In this document: positions 1-51,437 of the stretch, piece by piece
Position numbering within the stretch: position 1 is the stretch's first letter
Layout of the letters: each line of letters begins with the position of its first letter
Origin: a virus
IMG/VR virus record: IMGVR_UViG_3300018017_000002
Location: 1 to 51,437 of that record
Direction: 5' to 3' (one strand)
Length of the DNA: 51,437 nucleotides
The notes under the pieces: generated by a model
Told to the model about the DNA's origin: nothing
What the model saw: only the letters and a program-made list of their open reading frames with translations
Databases searched by the model: none
Made by a program: the position numbers and the translations under genes

Positions 1-123
1 ATTCTCGCATACAAATCTTTCCTGAATAGATTCTTATCAACCATTTCTCTTATATTGCGATTAGTTGCACACACAAACCTACATGAAATCTCTTTTTCAT
101 CTGCTGCACCGACAGGACGAATG
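1..123. repeat. terminal overlap identical to 51315..51437 (circular closure of the assembly)
   Basis: Direct comparison of the first 123 nt with the last 123 nt shows identity; an ORF reads through the join. Confidence 0.95.
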
Positions 124-680
124 TATCTTTTGCCATCAATAGGTTGTAATACATTAAGCAACTTAGCTTGTGTTGACAATGGCAAGTCGCCAATCTCATC
201 AAGAAACATTACTCCATCTTGGGCAGATAGTATTAGTCCTTTCTTACTGCTAGTTGCACCAGTAAATGCACCAGCAGTATGGCCAAACAGTTCTGACTCC
301 ACTAACTCTGCTGGCATAGCCGCGCAATTAATACGAGCAAATGTTCCTTGTCTATCACCTATCATTGCTCTAGCTATTAGCTCTTTACCAGTTCCAGTTT
401 CACCAGTAATAAGAACTTCATCATCAACTTTAGCTAGCTTCATAGCATCAGCTTTCATGGCTAGGGTATCTTCATCTTCGGTTATAAACTTCTTCAACCA
501 CAAAGCTGCTCCTGTAACCATATCTACTAACTGTCCATTCTCAATTCTAAACTTTAACTCAGGAGTAATATCTAGTAACTGTTGTACAGCTTCTACTTGT
601 CCAACAGCTAACAGAGAACGCAGAGTAGATTCTGTTGGAGCTATTCTATCAGGTGTGTTAGGTTTTTGTATTGATATCAT
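1..680 (-). CDS. sigma54-dependent transcriptional activator (bEBP, AAA+ core), 5' two-thirds; continues through the circular junction into 51314..51083 (303 aa when joined)
   Basis: Own reverse translation from ATG at 680: MISIQKPNTPDR...DDEVLITGETGTGKELIARA (Walker A)...ELFGHTAGAFTGATSS (GAFTGA loop)...DGVMFLDEIGDLPL (Walker B)...CATNRNIREMV. The + strand track ORF 55..714 is its shadow. Confidence 0.9.
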   Translation of the reverse strand, partial: MISIQKPNTPDRIAPTESTLRSLLAVGQVEAVQQLLDITPELKFRIENGQLVDMVTGAALWLKKFITEDEDTLAMKADAMKLAKVDDEVLITGETGTGKELIARAMIGDRQGTFARINCAAMPAELVESELFGHTAGAFTGATSSKKGLILSAQDGVMFLDEIGDLPLSTQAKLLNVLQPIDGKRYIRPVGAADEKEISCRFVCATNRNIREMVDKNLFRKDLYAR

Positions 681-5374: not shown

Positions 5375-5435
5375 GAGGATTTCTTTTGAAATCCTCATCA
5401 GGCATGGTTAAACCATGCGACGGGCCGAAGCCCGT
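5375..5435 (-). terminator. three consecutive hairpins at the left edge of GC island 1
   Basis: GAGGATTTC-TTTT-GAAATCCTC (5375-5396), GCATGG-TTAAA-CCATGC (5402-5418), ACGGGC-CGAA-GCCCGT (5420-5435). They sit directly after the stop of the Gly-X repeat gene. Confidence 0.5.
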
Positions 5436-5441
5436 TTCGGA

Positions 5442-5747
5442 TTAAGAGCCGTAGCCGTCGCCGGAGCCGTCGCCGTCGCCGTAGCCGTAGCCGTAGCCGT
5501 AGCCGTAGCCGGAGCCGGAGCCGGAGCCGTCGCCGTAGCCGTAGCCGTCGCCGTCGCCGGAGCCGGAGCCGTAGCCGTCGCCGTCGCCGTAGCCGTAGCC
5601 GTAGCCGTGGCCGTAGCCGTAGCCGTAGCCGTTGCCGGAGCCGTAGCCGGAGCCGCGGCCGTAGCCGTAGCCGGAGCCGTGGCCGGAGCCGGAGCCGACA
5701 TGCTGTGAATCCTCAAAGTTCACAGCCGCACTGGATGGTGTTACCAT
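5442..5747 (-). CDS. (Gly-X)n low-complexity protein, Gly/Tyr/Ser/Asp-rich (101 aa)
   Basis: In this frame every repeat codon ends in C (GGC, TAC, TCC, GAC, CAC, AAC, CGC). The ATG at 5747 overlaps the TAA of the upstream gene (ATGGTAA). The other two repeat-spanning frames look like shadows. Confidence 0.6.
   Translation of the reverse strand: MVTPSSAAVNFEDSQHVGSGSGHGSGYGYGRGSGYGSGNGYGYGYGHGYGYGYGDGDGYGSGSGDGDGYGYGDGSGSGSGYGYGYGYGYGDGDGSGDGYGS
5448..5699. repeat. imperfect tandem hexanucleotide repeat (GCCGTA/GCCGGA/GCCGTC)n
   Basis: Read directly; about 40 units with variation confined to two positions per unit. Confidence 0.9.
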
Positions 5748-6284: not shown

Positions 6285-6372
6285 TGAGCGCGGCAGGATT
6301 TGAACCTGCATGACCGCATAAGTCAGGGGCTTCTATGCTCACCCTTGCGTCTTTTCATTCCGCCACGCGCTC
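6285..6372 (-). tRNA. class-II (Leu-like) tRNA-like element with an aberrant anticodon arm and D-loop
   Basis: Acceptor GAGCGCG/CGCGCTC; D-arm TGGCGGAATGAAAAGACGC (Leu-like but lacks GG); T-arm GCAGG-TTCAAAT-CCTGC; long variable arm GAC-TTATGCG-GTC. The anticodon region AGGGT-GAGCATAGAAG-CCCCT gives only 4 bp and an 11-13 nt loop. No CCA is encoded. Confidence 0.5.
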
Positions 6373-6382
6373 ATAAATAAGT

Positions 6383-6501
6383 TGGCCTAAGCAGGACTTG
6401 AACCTGCATGATAAACATGTCTGTTTCTCTCGGCTGTTAACTAGCCTAGCGTCTCTGCCTATCGTTGCCCACTGGGGTCGTACAGTTTTCGCCATTAGAC
6501 C
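6383..6501 (-). tRNA. second tRNA-like element: good class-II 3' half, irregular 5' half (119 nt if the acceptor is GGTCTAA/TTAGGCC)
   Basis: T-arm GCAGG-TTCAAGT-CCTGC, acceptor 3' strand TTAGGCC, variable hairpin AAACA-GACA-TGTTT, anticodon-like hairpin GGCT-AGTTAAC-AGCC. About 30 extra nt lie between the D region and the anticodon arm. Confidence 0.3.
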
Positions 6502-6620: not shown

Positions 6621-6785
6621 TTAAATTAGCTGAGGTTTATTTGTTCTGTTATAAAAGTTTTTACATTTTTTGCACCAACGAAAGCCATGTAACATTGGTT
6701 CAAGCACACAATGAATTGGTCGAGTAACTGTCATATTATGCCTACCACATAAGCAAAGGAATCTACCTGAATAGTTAATGTGCAT
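6621..6785 (-). CDS. hypothetical small Cys-rich protein (54 aa)
   Basis: MHINYSGRFLCLCGRHNMTVTRPIHCVLEPMLHGFRWCKKCKNF...; below the track cutoff, in the AT-rich spacer inside island 1. Confidence 0.3.
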   Translation of the reverse strand: MHINYSGRFLCLCGRHNMTVTRPIHCVLEPMLHGFRWCKKCKNFYNRTNKPQLI

Positions 6786-6853
6786 TACAAATAGCATACT
6801 ACTCCTTCAAAACTCCACATGGTTTCCATGTCAAGCCGTGGTCAAGGGAGTGT

Positions 6854-7747
6854 TCATTTTTCCTCCTTTCCCTCAGCCTTGTGCTTCTTCTTGAGCGCCA
6901 GTTTGACTGCCCGCGTCTCGCACGGCTTCATGGCGTCACGAATCCGCTTGGACAGTGATGGGAACATGTTGACCAGAAACTCCCGGCCACCATCGCAGTC
7001 CTGAACCTTCTTGGCCTCGTTGCCATCGTAGAAGTTCTTGAGGCACTGTGCCAGTATGCGGCTGGCCTTCTCCTGCCCGCCGCTGTTATGGGACTGCTCC
7101 ATGTATTTGACATAGGCCCGAGCCTGTGTGGACATGTTCTCCAATGAGGATATTTGATTGGCGAACGCCCTTGCCTTCTCCTGCTCCCCGTGGTGGAACA
7201 TGGCCAGCGGCCCGACCACATAGCCCTTTCGCCGTGTCTGCCCCACAACACAGTCGATTACAGCCTCGATGTCCTTCCCCCACAGCTCATGGATGAGCAT
7301 GGAATTGGTCGTGGAGAGCCTTCTGGCTCCGCCCGAAGGATAGACCAGCATGGCTATGCAACGGCACGCAGCCGCCGTCAGAACGCCATTCTTGATGCCG
7401 TGAAGCTGCATCTGCTGTCCGGTCTGCCGGAATCGCCCACGGTCAATCGTGTCCATCGAATTCAGCTCGATGCCGTTCTTGTTCTCCTGCACCGGAATGT
7501 CGTATGTGACTAGCGACTCGATTGACTTGCCGCTGAACACGACGGCCCATAGCCGGTGCTGTCCGTCGCAGAGATTGCCGTCGGTGTCGAAGGCTATTCC
7601 CTGATGATTCAACACCCAGCGCCCGTTTCGCATGTCGGCGGCATACGCCTGAACGGTGTTCTCCGACACCTTGCGGTTGCGCGGGTTGTGCTTCTCCAGA
7701 ACGTCAATGGCCCATTCGGGAGTTATTGTCTCAACTTTTACTCGCAT
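6854..7747 (-). CDS. ParB/Srx-fold (ParB-like nuclease domain) protein
   Basis: 297 aa; ...NHQGIAFDTDGNLCDGQHRLWAVV... matches the DGQHR box of ParB N-terminal domains. GC-rich. Confidence 0.7.
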   Translation of the reverse strand: MRVKVETITPEWAIDVLEKHNPRNRKVSENTVQAYAADMRNGRWVLNHQGIAFDTDGNLCDGQHRLWAVVFSGKSIESLVTYDIPVQENKNGIELNSMDTIDRGRFRQTGQQMQLHGIKNGVLTAAACRCIAMLVYPSGGARRLSTTNSMLIHELWGKDIEAVIDCVVGQTRRKGYVVGPLAMFHHGEQEKARAFANQISSLENMSTQARAYVKYMEQSHNSGGQEKASRILAQCLKNFYDGNEAKKVQDCDGGREFLVNMFPSLSKRIRDAMKPCETRAVKLALKKKHKAEGKEEK

Positions 7748-7897: not shown

Positions 7898-8506
7898 TTA
7901 CTCAGGAGATGTGGTCTCTGTGGCGGCTTCCTTCGAGCGACGCGCTTTGCGCTCTTCAAAGTCAGCCTTCAAGCTATTCAATGTAGCAGTCATAGTGGCC
8001 ATCTTAGCCTTTGCATTGGCAATGGCAACGGCATCCCCGGATTCAAATGCCGCAATAAGAGTGACAGAAGTGAACTCCTTATACTCATTAACAGCAGCTT
8101 GATAGGCCTCATTAAGCTCAGACAGACGCATTGCAGAGGACTTGAGATTCGTCCAGAAGCCCAAGAACTTCTCCAATGAGAAGATACCATTCTTCAACCC
8201 GCCAGCCTTTTCAGACTCTTCGTCGCCAGTAGCATCCTCAACAAAATCTTGGCCATACCGACGGCCAATAGTATTGAGGGCATTTTTGACATTAGTTTTT
8301 CCCCACCATGCCAAGTCAGCCAAAAAGATTGGGTCAGCGGCAGGCAAAGAGTCAGTACCATCAGTTTCAATCTGTGCAGCTTGGTAAGGCTTATCTTTCC
8401 AAGCATCACGTTTGCCTGTACAGATGGTTAGAATCTTTTCAACGCCATTACGCACTACTTTGTGAGCAGTAGCCAGTGGATTGTGTGTATGTTGTGTTTC
8501 ACTCAT
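7898..8506 (-). CDS. hypothetical protein (202 aa)
   Basis: Track ORF with ATG start. Confidence 0.6.
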   Translation of the reverse strand: MSETQHTHNPLATAHKVVRNGVEKILTICTGKRDAWKDKPYQAAQIETDGTDSLPAADPIFLADLAWWGKTNVKNALNTIGRRYGQDFVEDATGDEESEKAGGLKNGIFSLEKFLGFWTNLKSSAMRLSELNEAYQAAVNEYKEFTSVTLIAAFESGDAVAIANAKAKMATMTATLNSLKADFEERKARRSKEAATETTSPE

Positions 8507-8842: not shown

Positions 8843-8858
8843 AGCATTTATCATGCCA
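8843..8858 (-). promoter_or_regulatory. sigma54-type -24/-12 promoter P5
   Basis: Minus strand reads TGGCAT-GATAA-ATGCT followed by ATA; intergenic, pointing into 8587..8790. Confidence 0.65.
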
Positions 8859-8907
8859 CACAAAGATTAGATACTAAATGGATGTTAGAAAGTATATTAG
8901 TCAATGA

Positions 8908-9300
8908 CTAGAAAAAAATTTTCTCCAAAAGAATAACTCCAACACAAGCAACTGTTCCTTTTGGAGCTAGCATACGAATATTCTTATTACGATTGTGCCA
9001 AAAGGCTTTAATATTTTCGGCATTAATAATATTAAAGTCTTCTGCATCAGCAATGTATCTAATTCTCACAGCAGAGATAAGTTGAGCTTTCCAAACTTCA
9101 TGTAAAGCTTCAAACTGAAAAGCAAATGCATGCTCTTTTGTGGAAAAAGCCAATAGTTTAGTATTAGCTAATTTTGGTAAGGTTAATTCGTTTGGTATGT
9201 AATCAACGGTAAAAGCACGATGTTCTGGATTATCGCTAAGACCAAAATTAGCACTCCTTAGTGTGCCATTGTTATTCATTACTACTTTATATCCAATCAT
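8908..9300 (-). CDS. hypothetical protein (130 aa)
   Basis: Track ORF 8908..9402 trimmed to the ATG at 9300 (MIGYKVVMNNNG...) to remove the overlap with 9314..9523. Confidence 0.55.
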   Translation of the reverse strand: MIGYKVVMNNNGTLRSANFGLSDNPEHRAFTVDYIPNELTLPKLANTKLLAFSTKEHAFAFQFEALHEVWKAQLISAVRIRYIADAEDFNIINAENIKAFWHNRNKNIRMLAPKGTVACVGVILLEKIFF

Positions 9301-9313
9301 ATTGTTGTTCTTT

Positions 9314-9523
9314 CTAGTTATTCTTTCCACGGTGTAAATCACGTTTAGACGGAGCCTTATTACTAACAGCTTGTCCACCTTCTTGTATAACTTTGCCAAC
9401 AAGATAATAAGATGGAATGTTCCTAGTTACCTTTTCAGGTTTGGCTTTCCAAGGATGTTTGACATGGAAAGTGTGTTTAACTGTTCCTATTGCTTTTATT
9501 GCTAGTGTGTTGGGTGATGCCAT
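9314..9523 (-). CDS. hypothetical basic protein (69 aa), directly downstream of the tmRNA
   Basis: Track ORF with ATG start, Lys/His-rich. Confidence 0.45.
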   Translation of the reverse strand: MASPNTLAIKAIGTVKHTFHVKHPWKAKPEKVTRNIPSYYLVGKVIQEGGQAVSNKAPSKRDLHRGKNN

Positions 9524-9550
9524 AGTTTTATTTTGGTTAACTAGTTAAAT

Positions 9551-9844
9551 TGGTGGAGCAGACGGGAATTGAACCCGTGTCCAATAATTATTTCTCACTA
9601 ATGAATTACAAGTTTATACTAACGGGGCGACTGATTTCAGTCACCATCCACCATTGGTCAGTTAAACTGTGACCAAACCAGCATCCACATAGCCGTAATG
9701 TGCAAGCACGGCATCAGCTTGTGCAACAGACATTGCGTAGTCTTGGTTAGCATTTGTTTTGCCTAGAGAGTTTTAAGTGGCCAACTAGACATCCACTACT
9801 TGCATTAGTTTTGATTTAATTACTGTCGAAACCATTACTGCCCC
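9551..9844 (-). ncRNA. ssrA: tmRNA (transfer-messenger RNA), 294 nt
   Basis: Minus strand: 5' GGGGCAGTAATGGTTTCGACAG...3' GGACACGGGTTCAATTCCCGTCTGCTCCACCA. The 7-bp acceptor stem has G3:U70, the T-arm is ACGGG-TTCAATT-CCCGT, CCA is encoded, and there is an internal tag ORF. Confidence 0.9.
9662..9763 (-). other. tmRNA tag reading frame: (A)GKTNANQDYAMSVAQADAVLAHYGYVDAGLVTV, then TAA
   Basis: Resume codon GGC follows a CTCTAG/pseudoknot-like region. The GKTN start resembles known GKTN-type tags. 33 codons, then TAA. Confidence 0.6.
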
Positions 9845-9860
9845 GTTATTAAAATTGTTT

Positions 9861-9922
9861 CCATACTAACATACTGCCTGCACAAAGTGTTTAATCCACT
9901 TGGGGCTAGAGGGTTAGTATGG
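9861..9922 (-). other. 10-bp perfect-stem hairpin in the tmRNA leader
   Basis: CCATACTAAC (9861-9870) pairs with GTTAGTATGG (9913-9922), about 17 nt upstream of the tmRNA 5' end. Confidence 0.5.
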
Positions 9923-10055
9923 AATATGTTTTGATACAGTTACATTGTCTGCATCTTTTACAAATTAGTCCTGCCATCATATACTAGCCTTGTGCATCTT
10001 ATAGTTGCTGATACACTAAGGGCCGACGTATGATTCTACATTGACATATTCTTAT

Positions 10056-10071
10056 AGCAACTTCTATGCCA
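10056..10071 (-). promoter_or_regulatory. sigma54-type -24/-12 promoter P4 (upstream of the tmRNA)
   Basis: Minus strand reads TGGCAT-AGAAG-TTGCT followed by ATA; about 200 nt upstream of the tmRNA 5' end. Confidence 0.7.
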
Positions 10072-10143
10072 TTGTATATCATCACTAATTCAACCAAGAT
10101 TTTAGCTCTTGGATTGGCTTTGAAATTTAGGTTGGTGAGGGTT

Positions 10144-10164
10144 GGAAGCTATGCACTAGAATAA
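10144..10164 (-). terminator. hairpin after 10188..10616
   Basis: CACTAGA-ATAAGAG-TCTAGTG; no U-run follows. Confidence 0.3.
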
Positions 10165-10187
10165 GAGTCTAGTGGATAGCATGTTAG

Positions 10188-10616
10188 TTATAACTTAAAC
10201 ATGGAACGGATTAGGTCACATTGCCACTTTCTTTCAGCAGCAACAGCATCAGCAACAGCAGCAACAGCATAAGCAGCAACAGCATAAGCAGCAACATTAG
10301 CAGCATAAGCAGCAACATTAGCAGCATTAGCAACAGCATAAGCATAAGCATAAGCATAAGCAGCAGCATTAGCAGCATTTCTACTATTAAAGTTGTTAAG
10401 ATGTTTAACATGGTCAGCAAACTGTTTTGCTAAGACAGCAAAAAGCTGTTTATCACAATATTCAACATTAAGTAAAAACCATAGCATCCATGATGTGTTG
10501 TTGCATGTATTCCATGCTTTACGAAATGAACCACAAGATTTAATAAAGGCCATTGCTTCTTTGCAAGGGTTGAATGTCTTGAGTTCTTTGACAGATTGAC
10601 ATTTTATTGTTTGCAT
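10188..10616 (-). CDS. hypothetical protein with a C-terminal Ala/Tyr/Asn/Val repeat region
   Basis: The track start at 10625 is TTG; the first ATG is at 10616 (MQTIKCQ...). Repeat: ...NAANAAAYAYAYAYAVANAANVAAYAANVAAYAVAAYAVAAVADAVAAERKW... Confidence 0.55.
   Translation of the reverse strand: MQTIKCQSVKELKTFNPCKEAMAFIKSCGSFRKAWNTCNNTSWMLWFLLNVEYCDKQLFAVLAKQFADHVKHLNNFNSRNAANAAAYAYAYAYAVANAANVAAYAANVAAYAVAAYAVAAVADAVAAERKWQCDLIRSMFKL
10236..10379. repeat. imperfect tandem tri/hexanucleotide repeat (GCAGCA/ACAGCA/TAAGCA/TTAGCA)n
   Basis: Read directly; it encodes the Ala/Tyr repeats on the minus strand. Confidence 0.85.
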
Positions 10617-10952
10617 AGCTGCCAACCCACACTTATTTACAGTCCAAGAGAGTCTGAAGACTTACCTTCAGTTTGGTCTCTTGACTAGCTTTGCCAGATA
10701 CGTCTTGCGTCTCACAGGCATTGCTTTATGGCCTAACAATCTTTCGATTCTTAGTTAGGTTAGAATCATAAACATACACGGATATGTTCTAAATGGTGCA
10801 ATCTTAATGCAGTTCTTATAGGCGATACCACTGCTTTCAGCTTGTCTTTCTAGCTTTTAAGGCTAGTGCCCGAAGCTATCAGATTGCACCAGTTAAAACA
10901 CATTCTGGACATAGAATCTAAATTGACAGGATAGACATTGTGTTTGATTGGA

Positions 10953-11546
10953 TTACTTGTGACTTGCAAGTGCCGTTTGAAGCAATTCAACAGCGTGCTG
11001 TTGAGCTTTCAGTTCCTCACGACTGAATTTACCAACATTATCCAGCATGAAGTCCATTCGGGCTTGTGCAGCAGACAAGCCGAATGTATCGCACAGTTTG
11101 AACTCATTCGGTTGCGGATTATACACTGATACCATTTTGTCAGTCTTGCTACGCACTAACTTGTCACCCTTGCCAATGCGGGTCATCAAGATGCCATGGC
11201 GAGTAGTCACTTTAGCATCATTGGCGATAGCCGTGTTAGCTATGACAATAGCCTGATTCCGCCAGAATGATTCGACAGCTTCCTTGCACTTGTTGAATAT
11301 GTCATCTGGCAGTTTCGTTGGCTTGTTTTGCTCGTCAAACTTGGCAATGCCAAGTAAAGAGCGAACATCATCAATCACACACAGTAGCAGGCTAACCTTG
11401 CCTTTGGTGCTACTGAATTGTGCGCCATTGTCGGACTTGCGTTTAGCATTGACTTTTACACGTTCGACATAGTCAATGTCAGACGGTGAACTGATAGCTG
11501 CTTTGTTAGACGGTGGCTGTTGTTCCAATGTTTTCGATTCGTTCAT
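10953..11546 (-). CDS. hypothetical protein, first gene of the leftward arm
   Basis: The track start at 11561 is TTG; the first ATG is at 11546 (MNESKTLEQ...). Confidence 0.6.
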   Translation of the reverse strand: MNESKTLEQQPPSNKAAISSPSDIDYVERVKVNAKRKSDNGAQFSSTKGKVSLLLCVIDDVRSLLGIAKFDEQNKPTKLPDDIFNKCKEAVESFWRNQAIVIANTAIANDAKVTTRHGILMTRIGKGDKLVRSKTDKMVSVYNPQPNEFKLCDTFGLSAAQARMDFMLDNVGKFSREELKAQQHAVELLQTALASHK

Positions 11547-11581
11547 TGTTTGTTTGCCCAAAACTTCCTTAGTGGTTCAAT

Positions 11582-11612
11582 AGTGTTAGACTGTCAAAAG
11601 ACAGTGTTAGTC
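11582..11612. promoter_or_regulatory. operator-like repeat/palindrome with an embedded TTGACA (minus strand)
   Basis: AGTGTTAGAC and AGTGTTAGTC are direct repeats 21 bp apart. They flank the palindrome ACTGTC-AAAA-GACAGT. The minus strand reads TTGACA at 11597..11592, but the best -10 (CACTAA) is poor. Confidence 0.3.
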
Positions 11613-11704
11613 TATTTAAGTCATGGGAAATTGGCACAATGCTATCCCGTCAATTTAGACTCTATTCTCTTTTCAGGATTTATTCTGCTATTATTGTTTG
11701 CTCT

Positions 11705-11720
11705 TGGCACACACTATGCT
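11705..11720 (+). promoter_or_regulatory. sigma54-type -24/-12 promoter P1
   Basis: TGGCAC-ACACT-ATGCT in the divergent intergenic region, pointing right toward the AT-rich block. Confidence 0.65.
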
Positions 11721-12057
11721 TTTCACCCATAGACCTACGCTGTTAAATACTACACACCAGCCCGGACTTTCATGTGACTCGTTGACCGTGCTTAACCACC
11801 GCTACCAGTTACTAGTCTAAACGAGCAAGTGATAGCGTAGCAGTGTGCGTGCCAACTTTGTAAGTAGTTGATAATCAAACGTTACTTAAAACACACCTAG
11901 TAAAGTTATATCGTTACCGTGTTTCTTTTTATACACTACCACACTTAAGTCATTGTATATTAGCACTTTACAAACTGTCTATTTTTGCTCACAGCGGTCA
12001 ATTCCTGTGTCTCAAAAAAGTGTCCTGTACTTACATTAGTATCTCTTATTCTCCCCT

Positions 12058-12215
12058 GTATATTATGCCTAGTATAATGTATGGTTATATTAAATGTAAT
12101 GTATAAGATATAAATATATTATATTATATTTATATTATATTTTTTAATATACTTTCTAACATTTTAAATATTTATGTATATTAATGTTATATTATTTCAA
12201 ATAATATATCCTACC
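12058..12215. other. extremely AT-rich low-complexity block (candidate DNA-unwinding element / replication origin)
   Basis: About 160 bp of ATATTATATT-type repeats with almost no G/C, at the divergence point of the two arms. Confidence 0.4.
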
Positions 12216-12467
12216 TTTATACTCTCCAAAGTATATCGGCTAATATAGGTGCTATTCATTAGTGATGCTTATGCACTAATACGTCATAATAGCATCTAAT
12301 CATACCTATGCTAGGTTAGCTAGTCTAATGGTTCAGGATGGCTAGACGAAACCAGAAAGAGAAACACGAAACTGAACTATGACTCTCTCTTGATACGAAC
12401 ATTTTGAAATCCAGCTAAATGATACAGATAGGCTAATATGAAGGGAGAATTAGCTAGTAATATATGA

Positions 12468-12483
12468 TGGCACAGAAAATGCT
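12468..12483 (+). promoter_or_regulatory. sigma54-type -24/-12 promoter P2 (start of the rightward arm)
   Basis: TGGCAC-AGAAA-ATGCT followed by ATA. The predicted start site falls within a few nt of the ATG at 12496. Confidence 0.7.
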
Positions 12484-12495
12484 ATAGATGCATAT

Positions 12496-12699
12496 ATGAG
12501 TAGTAAAGAGTATGCTAAGTTAACTGTTCAGAGAGATACTATAAGTAGGTTACTTAAAGGGCCAACTTTGAAAATACACAGAGTTAGCCTTGAGAAACAG
12601 TTGAGCGAGATAAGAGACAGAATACGTTTAGCACATAGGGAACAATTTTATGGAATTGAAAGACAACCAACAGGTTCAACCTTCGACTATACTGAGTAA
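12496..12699 (+). CDS. hypothetical protein (67 aa)
   Basis: Track ORF with ATG start; first ORF of the rightward arm. Confidence 0.5.
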   Translation: MSSKEYAKLTVQRDTISRLLKGPTLKIHRVSLEKQLSEIRDRIRLAHREQFYGIERQPTGSTFDYTE

Positions 12700-13510: not shown

Positions 13511-15341
13511 CAACGATTTAGAAATTGAGCAATTACTGCAGAAAGTTAATTCCTCTTCCGAGGAACAGACTACTCACAGAGTTGTTCCTGATGAGAAGTT
13601 AAAGATGGAGCCTTCTACTGCCGTTCCACCTGTTCCTCTATCTAACCCTCTAGCCCCAAGTTCCGAAGTTATTCATACAATAGATACACCTGCTACTTTT
13701 GATGGCTTAGCTATAAAAGACCCTGTTGACTTGCTAGTATTGCTAGACGAGAACATACAGAATGGAACTATTAAGCTTCATCCTTGGCAAATTCAATTTA
13801 TGCTTGACTTTGCTAACCCTAATCACACTAAGGAGCAGCCTTTTCAAGCAGCAGTTCAATCATGTAATAGTTCAGGTAAAGATAAATATGTAATAGCTGC
13901 CTGTGCTGTATGGCTAGCTATGCGGTATCAAGGTGTAGAGATACCAATTACTTCATCTTCTGGTACACAACTTGACAGTCAGACTTGTGCACACATTGAC
14001 CGCCTTTGTAACCGTTCTAATGCTATTTTGGGCCCAATGTGGAAGTTAAACTACCGTTATTATGAGTTCAAGCATATTGGCAGTTTAGGAGAACCTAACC
14101 CATCCACTATTAAGTGTTTTGCAACTGATGAAGCTGGCAAAGCAGAAGGATACCATCCATCTGATGCTGGGAGAAAAATGGCAATATTTACATCAGAAAC
14201 TAAGTCTATACCAGATGATATAACTGATGCACTAGAGAGATGCACTGGATTTACTCATAGAGTGGACGCATCATCACCTGGATTAGCAGCAGGGTACTTT
14301 TATAATACTTGTTCATCTGCTATTCCAAGAGAAGAAATAGATGATATATGCTCTCTTACTTCTGTCCAGACTGTCTTGTATAAGATAACAGCTTACCAGT
14401 GCCCACACATAACTGAATCAGAAATTAATCGTATAGCTTCTAAACTTCCTGGGGGGAAGAATAATCAAGTATTTAAGTCATCAGTCGAAGCCGAATTTGG
14501 TTCTACATCTGAAATGGTAGTTATACCATCCAACTTTGTATGGGGAGCAGTGTCAGACTTACCTAAAAGGAAAGTGCCATTTAATATAACTTGGATTCAA
14601 GAGCCGCATAACACAGCAGGGTTAGACTTATCTGATGGCGGCGCTGAGACTGTATTAGCTATTAGGAATGGTAATAAGCTACTCGGTATTGAGGCATTTA
14701 GACTGGAAGATACCGAAGATACGCTAGACTATCTTACTGAAACTTTATTTCCAAAATGGAATCTCAAGCACAAAGATGCGTTGATATTTGGTGACTATTG
14801 TGGTATGGGTGGCCCAATGCTTAGGGCACTAAAGAGACGTAAATGGTCTAATGTAAGGTTTGTGGATAGCCGTAACAAGGCTTCTGAGCCTAAGACGTAC
14901 GCCAATAGAGGTACAGAATTATTCTTCAATGTAAGACATTTGTTAGCTGGAAAAGAACTTATACTATACTATGATAAGTTGCTTATCGACCAGTTATGCA
15001 CTAGATACTATAAATTGAGAGATGGCGTGATACATCAATTGCTTTCTAAAGTAGAACAGAAGGCTAAGGGATTTCCTTCACCTGACCGTGCTGATGGTGT
15101 TAACCTCTGTTTCTGGAATTATAAATCTACTAGAGTATCAGAAGAAGATGAAGAACCATTTGAGAAAGAGAAAGAAGATGATAAAGATAGGCAAGTAGTA
15201 GTTAATGATTTTGACCAGAAAGTATGGGCAGAAACAGGATGTAAGAAATACAATCCTGAACATGTGGAGGCAGACAAGTCTGATTTACAGGAAGAAATAG
15301 AACAATACAACAAACAAAGAACACAACTAATTGGAGTATAA
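13503..15341 (+). CDS. terminase large subunit (alternative upstream ATG at 13446)
   Basis: 612 aa from the ATG at 13503; P-loop-like ...SCNSSGKDKYVIAA...; acidic nuclease-type segment ...AGLDLSDGGAETVLAI...; lies upstream of the portal-sized gene. Confidence 0.7.
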   Translation: MSDNDLEIEQLLQKVNSSSEEQTTHRVVPDEKLKMEPSTAVPPVPLSNPLAPSSEVIHTIDTPATFDGLAIKDPVDLLVLLDENIQNGTIKLHPWQIQFMLDFANPNHTKEQPFQAAVQSCNSSGKDKYVIAACAVWLAMRYQGVEIPITSSSGTQLDSQTCAHIDRLCNRSNAILGPMWKLNYRYYEFKHIGSLGEPNPSTIKCFATDEAGKAEGYHPSDAGRKMAIFTSETKSIPDDITDALERCTGFTHRVDASSPGLAAGYFYNTCSSAIPREEIDDICSLTSVQTVLYKITAYQCPHITESEINRIASKLPGGKNNQVFKSSVEAEFGSTSEMVVIPSNFVWGAVSDLPKRKVPFNITWIQEPHNTAGLDLSDGGAETVLAIRNGNKLLGIEAFRLEDTEDTLDYLTETLFPKWNLKHKDALIFGDYCGMGGPMLRALKRRKWSNVRFVDSRNKASEPKTYANRGTELFFNVRHLLAGKELILYYDKLLIDQLCTRYYKLRDGVIHQLLSKVEQKAKGFPSPDRADGVNLCFWNYKSTRVSEEDEEPFEKEKEDDKDRQVVVNDFDQKVWAETGCKKYNPEHVEADKSDLQEEIEQYNKQRTQLIGV

Positions 15342-19901: not shown

Positions 19902-19917
19902 TGGCATGAAAATTGCT
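19902..19917 (+). promoter_or_regulatory. sigma54-type -24/-12 promoter P3 (upstream of the major capsid gene)
   Basis: TGGCAT-GAAAA-TTGCT, a full match to the canonical TGGCAC-N5-TTGCW spacing; 150 nt upstream of the ATG at 20069. Confidence 0.8.
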
Positions 19918-20068: not shown

Positions 20069-21403
20069 ATGCCGTCATATTACAGTCAGCCAGGTTCATT
20101 CGCTAATGCAATCATTCAGCCGAATAACTTGTTCGCTCAACTTCCTTTCTACCTTGTTCATAATGAGGTAGAACAATACTGTAACTGGAATGAATTTGAC
20201 CAAATGTATGGGTCAATTCCGTGGCAGGAAAATATGGGTTCTGTCATGGAAGCAGTTACTCCACAGCGTTCACCTGTAGGTCGTTCGTTCTTCTTTCCTA
20301 ATCCTATTACTACAGCCAGTAATAAGGACATCTATCAGGTTACAGAATCAAATGAACAGGCTGTGTTGTACAAACACAAGTATGGTTCATTTGTGTTTAA
20401 CTTCATTCCTTCATTCCAAGTATTTTGGGATAAGTACATTAAGTTTAACTCTGATGATATTGTTAAACAAATTGCTGTAAGCAATAACCAGTTCATCGAA
20501 ACACAGATGTGGCAGAATGCTACTTATGTGTATATTTGTGGTGTTGGTCTTAGCGCTGGTGCTCCTACTGGTGCGATGAACTCGACTCTTAATGCAGCCA
20601 ACTCTAAGTCTGCTGCATGGCTAGTTGCCCTTGCTCAAGGCACAGCAGCTAATCCTGGCCCACTTCAAAATCTTCGTATTCGTGATGCATACCGTGCAGT
20701 AATGAATCTGCAAGATGATTTGGGTGCTCCTTCATTTAATGGTGCTAAGAACATGCCGAAAGACAATGAGGGTCTTAAGGGCCGTTATGCACTGTTCTGT
20801 GGTTCTGAGGATTACTTTAACTTTACCTTTGACCCTGATGTTAATGGTGTTGTTGGTACACAAGGTATGTTAAAGTCTGTTAATCTTGACTTGCTGTTTA
20901 ATGACTTCAAAGGTTCCTTGTTTGGTACATTGACATGCAAGATTAAGAAGTATCCTATTCGTTATAGTACACAGAACATTGTTGATGGTGCTGGTACTGT
21001 TCTTTGGGCGGCTGGATTTCCTATTGACCCTGAAATCTTCGACCCAACTGATAACAAGTGGAAACCTAATCCTTATTACACATCACTTGTGTCTGCTCCA
21101 TACTCTATTGCCTGGCTACTTGGTGATAACTTCTGTAAGACACTCAAGGTTGGCCCTCCACCTAAAGAGTTTGCTACAAAGAATATGTCAGGTGAGAAAT
21201 TCTACTCACTGCGATGGAATGGTGAGGTTCGTTTAACTGACCAGATTCTTATTACTAACTCTGATGGTTCGATTGAACTTAACGACTATGGTGAAAACTT
21301 GCAGCTTAAGTCTCAACTAACTCATGGATTGATTATGACAGAAAGACGTTTTGCGTTTCCAATTATAATTGCACGTTCTCGTCCAGCAATTACTTCTGTC
21401 TAA
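20069..21403 (+). CDS. major capsid protein (by position, size and expression signals)
   Basis: 444 aa; follows the scaffold-like gene; has its own strong promoter-like site and a long leader. Confidence 0.65.
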   Translation: MPSYYSQPGSFANAIIQPNNLFAQLPFYLVHNEVEQYCNWNEFDQMYGSIPWQENMGSVMEAVTPQRSPVGRSFFFPNPITTASNKDIYQVTESNEQAVLYKHKYGSFVFNFIPSFQVFWDKYIKFNSDDIVKQIAVSNNQFIETQMWQNATYVYICGVGLSAGAPTGAMNSTLNAANSKSAAWLVALAQGTAANPGPLQNLRIRDAYRAVMNLQDDLGAPSFNGAKNMPKDNEGLKGRYALFCGSEDYFNFTFDPDVNGVVGTQGMLKSVNLDLLFNDFKGSLFGTLTCKIKKYPIRYSTQNIVDGAGTVLWAAGFPIDPEIFDPTDNKWKPNPYYTSLVSAPYSIAWLLGDNFCKTLKVGPPPKEFATKNMSGEKFYSLRWNGEVRLTDQILITNSDGSIELNDYGENLQLKSQLTHGLIMTERRFAFPIIIARSRPAITSV

Positions 21404-21994: not shown

Positions 21995-22378
21995 ATGCCA
22001 CTTCGAGTAACAAATGCAGTAGAGAAGAATACATCTTGTGACCCTATAGTGCCAATAGTTGTGGCTGACAGTAAAGCTGTGACTGTATTGCCAGACATTA
22101 GTACATCAAAAGGCGAATGGCTAGGACGTTATATTCAGAATGTAGGAGCTAATGATTGCTATTATGCAATAGGTCATGACTGTGACCAAACTAATTTCAA
22201 TGGTATCTTATCTAAGCCTGCTTCTACTAATTCTGATTCATTTGGTTCTGGACAACAATTTGATGCATCTAACACAGGTCAGAAAATTTCAGTATTTTCT
22301 CGTGGTGGAACAACTATTGCTGTTACATCTATACGTCGAAATGATAATGCTCAAGGACAAGGCAACATACTGAAATAA
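21995..22378 (+). CDS. hypothetical protein (127 aa)
   Basis: Track ORF with ATG start. Confidence 0.55.
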   Translation: MPLRVTNAVEKNTSCDPIVPIVVADSKAVTVLPDISTSKGEWLGRYIQNVGANDCYYAIGHDCDQTNFNGILSKPASTNSDSFGSGQQFDASNTGQKISVFSRGGTTIAVTSIRRNDNAQGQGNILK

Positions 22379-23598
22379 TGAAAAGATTATTTGTAGTCTT
22401 ATTGGTTGGATGTACATTATCTGTATATGGTATTGGTGGATTAGTTAGTCCGACTATAAGTGCTAATGGTGGCGGGATTCCGTCCTCGGTTCAGTTCTCC
22501 GCGCTGGCGACGAATGCGATGAATGGTGTTCCTGGTGGCAATATCGTTACGAACAATCCCTATGCCGGTTTGTTCCTGATGGCGAACGCATTGACCAACC
22601 TGTATTATCCGGGGATTGTGTTCGTTTCCACCAATGGGAATGATACTAATGGTGGTGCTGGTTATTTGACCAATGCCTTTTTGACAGTTACCGGGGCTTG
22701 GACGCACATGGGCAACGGCTACGCCTATCATGTTGGGCCGGGCATGTTTAAGGTTTATACAAACGGAGTTTTCACCCATTGGATACAGGCACCCGCAAAC
22801 ATGGTTCTGGATGGAGAGGGAGCAAACACTGTTCTTTGGGCACCTTATGACCCCAATGCTGCCACCGGAATTGCGGTCACGACGAATCAAACTTTTCAAA
22901 ATCTTACGTGCAGTAATTTGGTGTTCTTCACTCCACTTGCTGCTGCTCTTTCGGGGACGTTAACTTCTGCCACAAACGTAAGCTGGCTGAATCTTTCGAT
23001 TCAAAACTCAAATGTAATTGACACGTGGTATGCCGATGGTGGCGATGCCAGTGGAGGGGGAGACGGATATCATTTTTGCATGGTGTCAAACTGTACAGTT
23101 GTCGGGTACTTTGATTTGGCTATGGGATTCTACAACTCCACCTTTGCATACGATAACATCTTGTTAGCTGCTACAAATAACGCTATAGCATTCGGTGGAA
23201 ACACTGACCCAATTTTCCTCTATGGCGGGAACTTCACTTTTATCGGCGGGACTTATACGCAGCAGCATGCGTCTGGTGGTTCGAGTGGCTACACTTCGAC
23301 GATTCAAGATGACGAAACCGGAATGGATACAAACACATTCATCGGCACAATTCAATGGTACATTCCCGGCACACTGGTAACGAACATGAGCGGAGGGACA
23401 ACTCACAGTGCCGGGGGAGTTTTTCCAGTCAATAGTTTTAGTGGAAATTTTTCTGGCAACGGCTCCGGGCTGACGAACGTCTCGTCGGCGTCTATTTCGG
23501 TTGTGACCAACTCCGCGCCGACGAATGCTGTCACTCCGCTCTTTTGGATTGGAATTACAAACGGCACATCGGTCTATAAAGTGCCGCTCTACCGATGA
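22378..23598 (+). CDS. lipoprotein-signal, beta-helix-like (pectate-lyase-like) protein; candidate tailspike or envelope-acting enzyme
   Basis: MKRLFVVLLVGC (lipobox LVGC); ...VLDGEGANTVLWAPYD...TFQNLTCSNLVF...; C-terminal ...GNFSGNGSGLTNVS... fibre-like motif. Composition switches from AT-rich to GC-rich at about nt 22465 within the ORF. Confidence 0.55.
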   Translation: MKRLFVVLLVGCTLSVYGIGGLVSPTISANGGGIPSSVQFSALATNAMNGVPGGNIVTNNPYAGLFLMANALTNLYYPGIVFVSTNGNDTNGGAGYLTNAFLTVTGAWTHMGNGYAYHVGPGMFKVYTNGVFTHWIQAPANMVLDGEGANTVLWAPYDPNAATGIAVTTNQTFQNLTCSNLVFFTPLAAALSGTLTSATNVSWLNLSIQNSNVIDTWYADGGDASGGGDGYHFCMVSNCTVVGYFDLAMGFYNSTFAYDNILLAATNNAIAFGGNTDPIFLYGGNFTFIGGTYTQQHASGGSSGYTSTIQDDETGMDTNTFIGTIQWYIPGTLVTNMSGGTTHSAGGVFPVNSFSGNFSGNGSGLTNVSSASISVVTNSAPTNAVTPLFWIGITNGTSVYKVPLYR

Positions 23599-24679: not shown

Positions 24680-24687
24680 AAGGGTGA

Positions 24688-25570: not shown

Positions 25571-25600
25571 AACTGAGCGGGTTCAACCCGTAGGAAAATT

Positions 25601-25960: not shown

Positions 25961-25962
25961 AA

Positions 25963-51042: not shown

Positions 51043-51058
51043 AGCATTTTCTATGCCA
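51043..51058 (-). promoter_or_regulatory. sigma54-type -24/-12 promoter P6 (25 nt downstream of the bEBP stop)
   Basis: Minus strand reads TGGCAT-AGAAA-ATGCT followed by TATA; points into the replication module. Confidence 0.7.
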
Positions 51059-51082: not shown

Positions 51083-51437
51083 TTAGAAAGTATATCGTAT
51101 CTTTCCTAATACATTATATCTTTTCAATGCTTGTTCAAGTGACCTTACATTCAATGACAAATCAATCTTATCATTCATTATAGCTTCTTCATATTGAGCT
51201 AGAAATTCTTTTGCTTTGACTGGCAACTTAAGTAAATCTCCAAGAGCTATTACTATTGGAACTATATCTCTCTTACGTTCCCTCAATGGTTTAATGTGCA
51301 ATTCAAATGTACTTATTCTCGCATACAAATCTTTCCTGAATAGATTCTTATCAACCATTTCTCTTATATTGCGATTAGTTGCACACACAAACCTACATGA
51401 AATCTCTTTTTCATCTGCTGCACCGACAGGACGAATG
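51083..51437 (-). CDS. sigma54-dependent activator, 3' third (same gene as 1..680; 51315..51437 duplicates 1..123)
   Basis: ...CATNRNIREMVDKNLFRKDLYARISTFELHIKPLRERKRDIVPIV...LNVRSLEQALKRY..., then a stop 14 aa later. No C-terminal HTH. Confidence 0.9.
   Translation of the reverse strand, partial: IRPVGAADEKEISCRFVCATNRNIREMVDKNLFRKDLYARISTFELHIKPLRERKRDIVPIVIALGDLLKLPVKAKEFLAQYEEAIMNDKIDLSLNVRSLEQALKRYNVLGKIRYTF

What the first reader, a model, noticed from the sequence alone, without database searches (positions are those of the whole stretch)
10056..10071. tmRNA placed under a sigma54-type promoter
TGGCAT-AGAAG-TTGCT (minus strand) lies about 200 nt upstream of the tmRNA 5' end, after the hairpin that follows the preceding gene. 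No ORF lies between them. A stable RNA gene driven by a -24/-12 promoter is unusual. It would make tmRNA production conditional on the phage activator.
Basis: partly seen in the sequence, partly recalled or inferred. Interest (0 to 1): 0.7.

Follow-up and report, generated by a model that had tools for sequence, protein, structure and literature searches.

The report
Phage tmRNA behind a sigma-54 promoter
A 51-kb uncultivated phage carries a complete tmRNA gene about 200 nt downstream of a well-conserved sigma-54-type (-24/-12) promoter, one of five such promoters in a genome that also encodes its own sigma-54 activator, so this ribosome-rescue RNA is probably made only when the phage switches on that activator.

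Summary
TGGCATAGAAGTTGCT lies at 10071..10056 (-), 211 nt upstream of a full-length tmRNA (9551..9844, -). It follows two hairpins, and no conserved ORF lies between it and the tmRNA.

It is not a chance match:
- TGGCAY-N5-WTGCT occurs 6 times against 0.18 expected, and all six copies are in the 11% of the genome that is non-coding.
- A matrix built only from distant relatives ranks this site second of about 100,000 positions.
- The window is a complete circular phage genome encoding a 303-aa AAA+-only sigma-54 activator with GAFTGA.
- Relatives at 40-70% protein identity keep the same motif at syntenic operon heads.

The only diverged phage that also carries this tmRNA (L019) keeps the -24/-12 core. 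The flanks and the overlapping sigma-70-like hexamers have diverged. A leader hairpin shows five compensatory double substitutions, so the leader is probably a transcribed, structured RNA.

Best reading: the tmRNA is the first gene of a sigma-54/activator-dependent cargo operon (leader, tmRNA, two small ORFs) and is processed from a long precursor.

Not shown: any transcript, the host and whether it has rpoN, or exclusive dependence on the activator. A chance-level extended -10 near the tmRNA and read-through from upstream remain possible. This is a new variant of known parts.

The parts
10056..10071 (-). -24/-12 core of the sigma-54-type promoter (TGGCAT-AGAAG-TTGCT), called p10071 in this report
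   Evidence: Second-best hit in the window (19.0 bits) with a matrix built only from distant relatives; the best of 20 shuffled genomes scored 16.5. The core is conserved in L019 (TGGCATGGAAGATGCT) while the flanks diverge.
10049..10055 (-). Conserved ATAAGAA directly downstream of the -12 element
   Evidence: Identical in L019. ATA(A/G/T) follows TGCT in most family promoters.
10087..10123 (-). 37-nt block TCAAAGCCAATCCAAGAGCTAAAATCTTGGTTGAATT containing the inverted repeat CCAAGA/TCTTGG. Function unknown: possible upstream regulatory site or hairpin.
   Evidence: 100% identical in L019 although neighbouring sequence has diverged. Inverted repeat at 10094-10112.
10148..10180 (-). 13-bp hairpin right after the stop codon of ORF 10188..10625, with no U-tract
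   Evidence: The simple terminator scan does not flag it on the minus strand.
9845..10045 (-). Predicted leader of about 200 nt between the inferred start site and the tmRNA 5' end. It is non-coding and structured.
   Evidence: Minimum free energy -53.8 kcal/mol, z=-3.3. 79% identical to L019 over 10144..9903. The small ORFs are not conserved.
9992..10016 (-). Leader hairpin GTGTATC-loop-GATGCAC
   Evidence: All 7 pairs are kept in L019 despite changes on both sides in 5 of them. A sixth pair changes on one side in L007. The G.U pairs form only on the tmRNA strand.
9551..9844 (-). Complete tmRNA gene. Tag ANQDYAMSVAQADAVLAHYGYVDAGLVTV*.
   Evidence: ARAGORN. Rfam RF00023, 112.4 bits, full length, with acceptor stem GGGGCAG/CUGCUCC including G3.U, T-arm and CCA. 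The tag frame is conserved in L019 and L020.
9863..9871 (-). Rival element: extended -10-like TGtTAGTAT, 19-27 nt upstream of the tmRNA 5' end
   Evidence: Read. The pattern TGNTANNAT is not enriched: 56 hits against 53.6 expected. It is not adjacent to the tmRNA in L019.
9314..9523 (-). 69-aa ORF downstream of the tmRNA, probably in the same transcription unit
   Evidence: No Pfam or PHROG hit.
8908..9300 (-). 130-aa ORF (MIGYKVVMNNNG...), the last gene before the next sigma-54-type promoter
   Evidence: Its start region is conserved in L019 (window 9309..9247 = L019 8662..8724, 90%).
1..680 (-). Sigma-54 activator (bEBP) gene, first 680 nt. The gene crosses the junction of the circular contig.
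   Evidence: GAFTGA and ESELFGH. PF00158 at E=1.8e-54. Residues 65-296 align to the NtrC1/FleQ/PspF AAA+ domains and the protein ends at residue 303 with no HTH.
51083..51314 (-). Sigma-54 activator gene, last 232 nt including the stop codon
   Evidence: 1-123 is identical to 51315-51437, so the contig is circular with a true length of 51,314 bp.
51043..51058 (-). Sister promoter TGGCATAGAAAATGCT, 25 nt after the activator stop codon
   Evidence: The same position is kept in L002, L012, L013, L014, L023, L025 and L003-L006.
8843..8858 (-). Sister promoter TGGCATGATAAATGCT, heading the next operon downstream
   Evidence: Syntenic copies lie upstream of the homologue of ORF 7898-8506 in L013, L016 and L012.
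12468..12483 (+). Sister promoter TGGCACAGAAAATGCT at the head of the terminase/structural arm. It is the closest paralogue of p10071.
   Evidence: Extended similarity to p10071.
19902..19917 (+). Sister promoter TGGCATGAAAATTGCT upstream of ORF 20069-21403. That ORF is a putative major capsid gene, judged by position only.
   Evidence: 26.5 bits. A syntenic copy is in L008 at 16161.

Best explanation
p10071 is most likely a working sigma-54-dependent promoter of a phage that directs much of its transcription through host sigma-54 RNA polymerase and its own activator.

Proposed mechanism:
1. The phage makes a 303-aa AAA+-only enhancer-binding protein with GAFTGA and no C-terminal DNA-binding domain (shown).
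2. Host E-sigma54 binds TGGCAT-N5-TTGCT as a closed complex, and the activator's ATPase opens it (inferred from family knowledge).
3. Transcription starts near 10046 and runs through a structured leader of about 200 nt, the tmRNA, and two small ORFs (9314-9523 and 8908-9300) (inferred).
4. The mature tmRNA is cut from this precursor by RNase P at the 5' end and by 3' exonucleases, as for any tmRNA or tRNA embedded in a longer transcript (inferred).

The tmRNA would therefore accumulate together with the other activator-dependent units, which include the terminase and structural arm. At that stage heavy translation could make ribosome rescue useful.

The tmRNA is lineage-specific cargo. It sits in the variable zone where related phages also place sigma-54-type promoters in front of unrelated genes.
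For: 1. Motif statistics. 6 hits against 0.18 expected. 6 of 6 hits are intergenic in a genome that is 11% non-coding. The five strong copies all point the same way as the genes downstream.
2. Independent matrix. A matrix from 15 promoters of distant relatives ranks the window sites 19902, 10071, 8858, 12468 and 51058 as the top five. Site 10071 scores 19.0 bits; the best of 20 shuffles scored 16.5.
3. Synteny. The motif recurs at the same four operon heads in relatives with 40-70% protein identity. Extra copies lie in the variable zone (L013 at 4799, L016 at 3295 and 5982).
4. Activator. PF00158 at E=1.8e-54, with GAFTGA. The 37 homologues aligned, drawn from the 120 best hits (about 280-330 aa, many on contigs of 45-53 kb), share the same domain limits.
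5. The one informative tmRNA relative, L019. The -24/-12 core plus ATAAGAA is conserved, while the 14 nt upstream and 20 nt downstream have diverged. The overlapping sigma-70-like hexamers are lost (TTGCTA/TAGAAT becomes ATGCTA/TAGTGT). L019 has no other sigma-54 site between that promoter and the tmRNA.
6. Leader. Five compensatory double changes in a 7-bp hairpin, with strand-specific G.U pairs, suggest that this strand is transcribed. The leader folds with z=-3.3.
7. No terminator-like site on the minus strand between the motif and the tmRNA.
8. Long leaders are normal here. p19902 lies 151 nt and p51058 lies 392 nt before the first ORF.
9. In L020 a related tmRNA abuts a protein gene, with the stop codon 5 nt before the tmRNA 5' end. 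This tmRNA lineage is therefore routinely embedded in operons.
Against: - There is no RNA evidence of any kind.
- The host is unknown, so the presence of rpoN is assumed. The phage has no RpoN box, though this was tested by a regular-expression search only.
- Only one diverged relative carries the tmRNA. There the promoter is 765 nt away, with two insertions in between.
- An extended -10-like TGtTAGTAT lies at the right distance to give a leader of about 12 nt.
- Six sigma-70-like sites lie upstream on the same strand at 11.95-12.33 kb, and the hairpins before p10071 lack U-tracts. Read-through is therefore possible.
- p10071 lacks the ATATACTTTCTAACAT element that p8858 and p51058 share upstream.
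Confidence: 0.63

Rival explanations
1. A proximal sigma-70-type extended -10 promoter (TGtTAGTAT, 9871..9863) drives the tmRNA with a leader of about 12 nt, as in a cellular ssrA gene. On this reading the sigma-54 promoter makes only the upstream structured RNA, or adds a second, conditional input.
For: The element sits 19-27 nt before the mature 5' end. From my own knowledge, that geometry is like E. coli ssrA. The leader has its own conserved structure and could be a separate RNA.
Against: TGNTANNAT is at chance frequency in the genome: 56 hits against 53.6 expected. That gives roughly a 2% chance of one within 40 nt on the right strand and about 11% within the 211-nt gap. There is no -35 element. 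In L019 the homologous TAGTAT has lost the TG and lies about 310 nt from the tmRNA in front of small ORFs, and the 24 nt next to the L019 tmRNA hold nothing -10-like. The host's sigma-70 consensus is unknown.
Confidence: 0.15
2. The tmRNA is made mainly by read-through from promoters further upstream in the non-coding region 11562-12467. It is therefore expressed whether or not the activator is present.
For: Six sigma-70-like sites lie on the minus strand at 11952-12327. The hairpins between there and p10071 have no U-tracts.
Against: The number of sigma-70-like sites is not above shuffles: 9 against 6.5 +/- 2.8. A conserved, high-scoring sigma-54 promoter placed just before the unit would be unnecessary if read-through were enough. 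The 13-bp hairpin at 10148-10180 and the conserved hairpin block at 10619-10716 could stop transcription in a host that needs no U-tract.
Confidence: 0.1
3. The motif family is real but is read by something other than host sigma-54, such as a phage-specific factor. The resemblance to -24/-12 is then a coincidence.
For: Neither the host nor sigma-54 was identified. The family consensus has extra conserved bases (TGCT-ATA) beyond the textbook consensus.
Against: GG-N10-GC spacing is invariant in 32 instances and the consensus TGGCAYG...TTGCT is textbook sigma-54. The phage and all relatives examined encode a protein whose only recognisable function is contacting sigma-54 through GAFTGA. No sigma-like ORF turned up in the Pfam and PHROG scans, which covered only part of the ORFs.
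Confidence: 0.05
4. The motif at 10056-10071 is a chance match with no function.
For: A single strict match has a prior of about 14% in a window of this size.
Against: 6 hits against 0.18 expected, all intergenic. Ranked second by an independent matrix. Conserved in L019 against diverged flanks. Extended paralogy with the late-operon promoter.
Confidence: 0.02

Closest known systems
Sigma-54-dependent small-RNA genes of bacteria (Vibrio Qrr1-5 with LuxO, E. coli GlmY with GlrR, Pseudomonas CrcZ with CbrB); from my own knowledge
   Same: A non-coding RNA gene sits behind a -24/-12 promoter, so the RNA is made only when an AAA+ enhancer-binding protein is active.
   Different: Those are chromosomal regulatory sRNAs that start at or near the transcription start. 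Their activators have HTH domains and defined upstream sites. Here the RNA is a tmRNA processed from a leader of about 200 nt, and both promoter and activator are viral.
Pseudomonas aeruginosa phage YuA
   Same: A phage whose programme uses host sigma-54. [quoted passage not shown] PMC10914365 reports a sigma-54-like promoter, P015.
   Different: The passages I read mention no phage-encoded activator. There is one sigma-54-like promoter rather than a conserved set at operon heads, and no tmRNA. I found no sequence relationship: the query regions had no near match in the phage collection.
Phage-encoded tmRNAs (mycobacteriophages, PMC1475703; huge phages, PMC7162821; others listed)
   Same: A full-length tmRNA gene carried as cargo in a phage genome.
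   Different: I know of no promoter class assigned to any of them. This one is short (294 nt). Its tag is 29 aa and ends in VTV rather than the usual LAA or VAA. It sits in a 51-kb genome with only one weak tRNA-like Rfam hit, not the large tRNA sets of huge phages.
Enhancer-binding proteins without a DNA-binding domain (Helicobacter pylori FlgR, Chlamydia CtcC); from my own knowledge
   Same: The AAA+ sigma-54 interaction domain has GAFTGA and ends after the lid subdomain with no C-terminal HTH. Such proteins can activate from solution.
   Different: Those proteins have receiver domains and are controlled by phosphorylation. The phage protein has a 64-aa N-terminal module (two helices, a beta-hairpin, a helix) of unknown role.
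Cellular ssrA genes (E. coli type); from my own knowledge
   Same: The same RNA family, and the 5' end must be matured by RNase P.
   Different: Cellular ssrA is typically a single-gene unit with a sigma-70 promoter a few nucleotides upstream. Here the only conserved promoter is a -24/-12 element 211 nt away (765 nt in L019), and the gene is embedded in an operon.

Membership tests
Sigma-54-dependent (-24/-12) promoter | GG and GC doublets exactly 10 nt apart within TGGCAC-N5-TTGCW | tested here: met
   TGGCAT-AGAAG-TTGCT differs from the consensus at one position (C to T). T at that position is the majority in the phage family: 24 of 32 instances.
Sigma-54-dependent (-24/-12) promoter | Lies in non-coding DNA upstream of a transcription unit and points the same way | tested here: met
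   It lies in the intergenic gap 9524-10187 on the same strand as the tmRNA and the downstream ORFs.
Sigma-54-dependent (-24/-12) promoter | More frequent than chance and conserved in relatives | tested here: met
   6 hits against 0.18 expected. Syntenic conservation in relatives. Conserved in L019 against diverged flanks. Second-ranked by the independent matrix.
Sigma-54-dependent (-24/-12) promoter | A cognate enhancer-binding protein with GAFTGA is available | tested here: met
   The phage gene at 680..1 plus 51314..51083 matches PF00158 at E=1.8e-54 and has GAFTGA.
Sigma-54-dependent (-24/-12) promoter | Sigma-54 (RpoN) is present in the cell | not testable with these tools
   The host was not identified. 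No RpoN box was found in the six-frame translation of the phage, by regular expression only.
Sigma-54-dependent (-24/-12) promoter | Transcript starts about 12 nt after the GC, and open-complex formation depends on activator and ATP | not testable with these tools
   This needs 5'-end mapping and in-vitro transcription.
tmRNA (Rfam RF00023) | tRNA-like domain: acceptor stem with G3.U, T-arm and 3' CCA | tested here: met
   GGGGCAG pairs with CUGCUCC-ACCA, and the T-arm is GGACACGGGUUCAAUUCCCGU.
tmRNA (Rfam RF00023) | Score above the curated threshold over the full model | tested here: met
   112.4 bits against a gathering score of 47, covering model positions 1-374.
tmRNA (Rfam RF00023) | Internal tag reading frame with an Ala resume codon and a stop | tested here: met
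   ARAGORN calls a 29-aa tag. The frame is kept through substitutions and an in-frame insertion in L019 and L020.
tmRNA (Rfam RF00023) | Tag ends in a canonical hydrophobic degron (..LAA or ..VAA) | tested here: not met
   The window tag ends in VTV and the L019 tag in VTA. Only the distant L020 tag ends in VAA. Membership of the RNA family is unaffected, but whether tagged proteins are degraded is open.
Bacterial enhancer-binding protein (NtrC/PspF class) | AAA+ sigma-54 interaction domain with Walker A and B, GAFTGA and sensor II | tested here: met
   GETGTGKE, FLDEIG, GAFTGA and NVRSLEQ are present. Residues 65-296 align to 3dzd, FleQ and PspF. The structure model has pLDDT 90.8.
Bacterial enhancer-binding protein (NtrC/PspF class) | C-terminal HTH (Fis-type) DNA-binding domain | tested here: not met
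   The protein ends 7 residues after the lid subdomain. There is no HTH_8 hit, and all 37 homologues end at the same point. It is best filed with the variants that lack a DNA-binding domain.

The most novel reading that the evidence does not exclude
A widespread family of roughly 50-kb environmental phages may run replication, structural and cargo operons through host sigma-54. It would do so with a virus-encoded enhancer-binding protein that lacks a DNA-binding domain and a conserved set of -24/-12 promoters. In one lineage this regulon would have captured a tmRNA with an unusually long, non-canonical tag, making ribosome rescue an activator-timed viral function. That would be the first virus-encoded bEBP regulon and the first sigma-54-controlled tmRNA I am aware of. 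My literature searches found neither.
Probability: 0.5. Interest if true: 0.75.

Novelty: new variant of a known kind. Interest (0 to 1): 0.6.

Why it matters
Known phage strategies mostly redirect or replace sigma-70 holoenzyme, or bring a phage RNA polymerase. Use of sigma-54 is described as rare, with YuA as the cited case (PMC5053324).

Here the promoter, its activator and its conservation across relatives are all readable from sequence. That gives a compact, testable system in which a virus brings the ATPase that unlocks host sigma-54. Sigma-54 promoters are normally silent without an activator. If that holds here, they would give the phage a tight switch.

Placing a tmRNA behind that switch suggests that ribosome rescue, or tagging with a non-standard tag, is wanted at a particular stage of infection. 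It also yields a natural orthogonal pair of promoter and small activator. And it shows that tmRNAs can be matured from long operon transcripts.

Tried and rejected
- Near-identity DNA search of the locus against GenBank phages found nothing. The distant search found only short matches to tRNA-like ends. A terminase search gave only remote Akkermansia phage hits at 25-28% identity.
- The host could not be identified. Exact-pattern scans with the tmRNA 3' end found a Bacillales MAG that shares only the tRNA-like ends, and a Planctomycetia tRNA. NCBI and JGI contigs carrying activator homologues gave no organism names.
- A Bacteroidota-type promoter scan (TTTG-N17-23-TAnnTTTG) gave 3 hits, none intergenic. 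That host idea gained no support.
- A second tmRNA pattern scan of viral contigs gave one chance hit in unrelated high-GC DNA (L022), which I discarded.
- The five closest bEBP or helicase relatives (L002, L008/L012, L013, L016), plus L023 and L025, have no tmRNA.
- Pfam and PHROG scans of the neighbouring ORFs returned nothing useful.
- An Rfam E-value search of 9500-12600 found nothing in the leader.
- I considered the long hairpin just before the tmRNA (about 9924-9860) as a terminator and rejected it. It is AU-rich with a 40-nt interior, its short U-run lies 6 nt away, the scan does not flag it, and it is not conserved as a hairpin in L019.
- I considered whether the frame across the promoter, open in both the window and L019, is a gene, and rejected it. 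The amino acids match only where nucleotide blocks are conserved.
- The two extra TGGCAC motifs at 11705(+) and 11854(-) score low with the family matrix. I do not count them as promoters of this class.
- I did not submit the activator model to a fold search, because the tool cannot search the N-terminal module alone.

Full report
**Observation.** The 16-mer TGGCATAGAAGTTGCT is at 10071..10056 on the minus strand. Its GG and GC doublets are 10 nt apart, the spacing that defines sigma-54 promoters.
- ARAGORN and Rfam (RF00023, 112 bits, full length) place a tmRNA at 9551..9844 on the same strand.
- The motif ends 211 nt before the mature 5' end. A start about 12 nt after the GC would give a leader of about 200 nt.
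- Two inverted repeats lie between the stop of the preceding ORF (10188..10625) and the motif: a 13-bp hairpin at 10148-10180 and CCAAGA/TCTTGG at 10094-10112.
- Only 24-aa and 32-aa ORFs lie in the gap, and neither is conserved as protein in a relative.

**What the window is.** Bases 1-123 equal 51315-51437, so this is a complete circular contig of 51,314 bp.
- It has a plus-strand arm (12.5-41.2 kb) that starts with a large terminase. A minus-strand arm carries a helicase, ligase-like protein, PD-(D/E)XK nuclease, AAA_24 protein, family-A polymerase pieces and a DUF3987 protein.
- It has no near match among GenBank phages.
- The contig IMGVR_UViG_3300037843_000033 is a 99%-identical variant.
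- A six-frame scan found ESELFGH and GAFTGA. The gene crosses the contig junction (680..1 plus 51314..51083) and encodes a 303-aa protein matching PF00158 at E=1.8e-54.

**Is the motif more than chance?**
- The strict consensus gives 2 hits against 0.15 expected. Allowing A or T before GC gives 6 hits against 0.18 expected, and no shuffle of 100 exceeds 3.
- All six hits lie in the 11.2% of the genome that is non-coding.
- Five of them share an extended consensus, TGGCAY-RNWAR-WTGCT-(0-2 nt)-ATA, and point the same way as the genes downstream. They are at 8858(-), 10071(-), 12468(+), 19902(+) and 51058(-).
- As an independent test, I built a 30-column matrix from 15 promoters of distant relatives only. 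I then scanned both strands of the window. Its top five hits were exactly these five sites. Site 10071 came second at 19.0 bits, above the best score (16.5) in 20 shuffled genomes.

**Comparative evidence for the promoter family.** Relatives were recovered through the activator, helicase and terminase. They share 40-73% protein identity with the window.
- The motif recurs at the same places:
  - just after the activator's stop codon (L002, L012, L013, L014/15, L023/24, L025/26, L003-L006);
  - at the head of the terminase arm (L013, L016, L012/L008, L019);
  - upstream of the homologue of ORF 7898-8506 (L013, L016, L012, L025);
  - upstream of the homologue of ORF 20069-21403 (L008).
- Across 32 non-redundant instances TGGCA, the GG-N10-GC spacing and TGC are invariant.
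- Extra copies lie in the variable zone between the terminase-arm promoter and the 8858-type promoter, in front of lineage-specific genes (L013 at 4799; L016 at 3295 and 5982). The window's p10071 and tmRNA sit in that same zone.
- None of those relatives has a tmRNA, so the tmRNA is recently acquired cargo.

**The one informative tmRNA relative.** Exact-pattern scans with the tmRNA 3' end returned three relevant loci: L021 (identical to the window), L019 and L020.
- L019 is an 8.8-kb metagenome contig with 88% terminase identity and a tmRNA 94% identical to the window's.
  - The promoter and most of the leader are homologous at 79% (window 10144..9903 = L019 6535..6776).
  - The alignment shows alternating conserved and diverged stretches. 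A 37-nt block with the CCAAGA/TCTTGG repeat is 100% conserved. The next 14 nt are diverged. TGGCAT-(A/G)GAAG-(T/A)TGCT-ATAAGAA is conserved. The next roughly 20 nt are diverged. Conserved leader blocks follow.
  - The sigma-70-like pair that overlaps the -12 element in the window (TTGCTA-16-TAGAAT) is not kept. In L019 it reads ATGCTA and TAGTGT.
  - L019 lacks the Imm5-like ORF upstream. It has two insertions (6777-7025 and 7077-7371, with small ORFs) between leader and tmRNA, so the promoter is 765 nt from the tmRNA there.
  - The family matrix finds no other sigma-54 site in that interval.
- L020 has a more distant tmRNA with the same conserved tag core. It directly abuts a protein gene and has no promoter of its own. 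This tmRNA lineage is therefore habitually embedded in operons.

**The leader is probably a transcribed, structured RNA.**
- The hairpin at 10016..9992 (GTGTATC-loop-GATGCAC) keeps all seven pairs in L019 although five pairs changed on both sides. A sixth pair changes on one side in L007.
- Its G.U pairs form only on the tmRNA strand.
- The whole leader folds with z=-3.3.
- This suggests that RNA is made from this strand downstream of the motif. With only three sequences it is an indication, not proof.
- No terminator-like site lies on this strand between the motif and the tmRNA.
- Long leaders are usual for this phage's promoters: 151 nt at p19902 and 392 nt at p51058.

**The activator.**
- Residues 65-296 align to the AAA+ domains of NtrC1, FleQ, LuxO and PspF.
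- The protein stops 7 residues later, and all 37 aligned homologues end at the same point. There is no C-terminal HTH.
- An AlphaFold model (pLDDT 90.8) shows a 64-aa N-terminal module of two helices, a beta-hairpin and a helix. Its role is unknown.
- The protein may activate from solution, as DNA-binding-domain-less bEBPs do (my own knowledge). Alternatively the N-terminal module may bind DNA.
- Candidate upstream sites exist but are untested. They are GTATAAC/GTTATAC repeats in relatives, ATATACTTTCTAACAT at p8858 and p51058, and the 37-nt block at p10071.
- p10071 is most similar to the terminase-arm promoters of the window and of L019. That suggests it arose by duplication and is co-regulated with them.

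**Rivals.**
- (a) An extended -10-like TGtTAGTAT lies 19-27 nt before the tmRNA and would give a cellular-style short leader. The pattern occurs at chance frequency (56 hits against 53.6 expected). It has no -35 element. In L019 it has lost the TG and is not next to the tmRNA.
- (b) Read-through from sigma-70-like sites at 11.95-12.33 kb cannot be excluded, because the intervening hairpins lack U-tracts. Those sites are not more numerous than in shuffles.
- (c) Recognition by a factor other than sigma-54 is unlikely, given the invariant -24/-12 geometry and a GAFTGA protein in every relative.
- (d) Pure chance is effectively excluded.

**Comparison with what is known.**
- Phage tmRNAs are common (PMC1475703, PMC7162821).
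- From my own knowledge, sigma-54-dependent non-coding RNAs are well known in bacteria (Qrr, GlmY, CrcZ).
- Use of sigma-54 by a phage is called 'rare' but 'not unprecedented', with YuA as the example (PMC5053324; PMC10914365).
- Five literature searches found no report of a phage-encoded enhancer-binding protein with its own promoter set, or of a sigma-54-controlled tmRNA. The library does not cover all journals.
- I therefore rate this a new variant of known kinds. Each part is familiar; the combination and the viral ownership are new.

**Limits.**
- Nothing here shows a transcript.
- The host and its rpoN are unknown.
- Conservation of the promoter-tmRNA link rests on one diverged relative.
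- Confidence that p10071 is a real sigma-54 promoter is about 0.85.
- Confidence that it is the main source of the tmRNA is about 0.63.

Noticed in passing
window 10619-10716 (minus strand): A non-coding block of about 100 nt is 100% identical in L019 (6337-6434) while its flanks diverge. It holds a long hairpin, GTCAAGAGAccaaaCTGAAGgtaagtCTTCAGacTCTCTTGGAC. It could be a small RNA or a terminator between ORF 10953-11561 and the next gene.
   Followed up: partly
window 9898-9917 (minus strand) and 13642-13661 (plus strand): The exact 20-nt sequence CTAACCCTCTAGCCCCAAGT occurs in the tmRNA leader and, in the same RNA sense, inside the large-terminase gene. The two copies form an inverted DNA repeat 3.7 kb apart. 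The terminase copy is also present in L019. This is unexplained.
   Followed up: partly
window 9662-9751 (tag-coding part of the tmRNA): The tag is unusually long at 29 aa and ends in VTV. The L019 tag ends in VTA and the L020 tag in VAA. A conserved core, MSVAQADAVLA(H/K)YGY, is shared by all three. Tagged proteins may not be ordinary protease substrates.
   Followed up: partly
window 11562-12467: This is a 900-nt stretch with no ORF between the two divergent arms. It holds two convergent TGGCAC-N5-(A/C)TGCT motifs (11705+ and 11854-) around a segment richer in GC. The 11705 copy is conserved in L019 (5263-). Both score low with the promoter matrix. The region may be an origin, a control region or an RNA gene.
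   Followed up: partly
window 10188-10625 (minus strand): This 145-aa ORF has a run of A-A-Y/N-A/V repeats from 9- to 15-nt tandem units and a weak Imm5-like Pfam hit (E=0.0017). It is absent from L019, where about 100 nt replace it, so it looks like inserted cargo.
   Followed up: partly
window 6285-6372 and 6391-6411 (minus strand): Rfam calls an 88-nt tRNA at 36 bits that ARAGORN does not report. A 21-nt repeat of its 3' end lies 98 nt away. These are possibly a degenerate or intron-bearing tRNA pair in a 660-nt non-coding gap.
   Followed up: no
window 5400-5747: Sixteen tandem copies of a 12- to 18-nt unit lie inside overlapping ORFs (weak TrAA12-like hit). They fall within a segment of higher GC, 0.45-0.50 across 4-8 kb.
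   Followed up: no
upstream of promoters: window 8884-8899 and 51085-51100; relatives L012, L013, L016, L002, L014: p8858 and p51058 share ATATACTTTCTAACAT about 26 nt upstream of the -24 element. Relatives have GTATAAC/GTTATAC repeats at a similar distance. These may be upstream activator sites. The tmRNA promoter lacks them.
   Followed up: partly
window 22000-26000: The structural arm contains a 4-kb stretch at 47-52% GC against about 38% elsewhere. It has many overlapping ORFs on both strands and may have been acquired horizontally.
   Followed up: no
L020 (Ga0065707_10179676), 1-1404: This 1.4-kb contig at 48% GC carries a tmRNA about 80% identical to the window's. The tmRNA follows directly after a small CxxC-rich protein gene and is followed by a strong GC hairpin. 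This tmRNA lineage appears to move between unrelated mobile genomes.
   Followed up: partly
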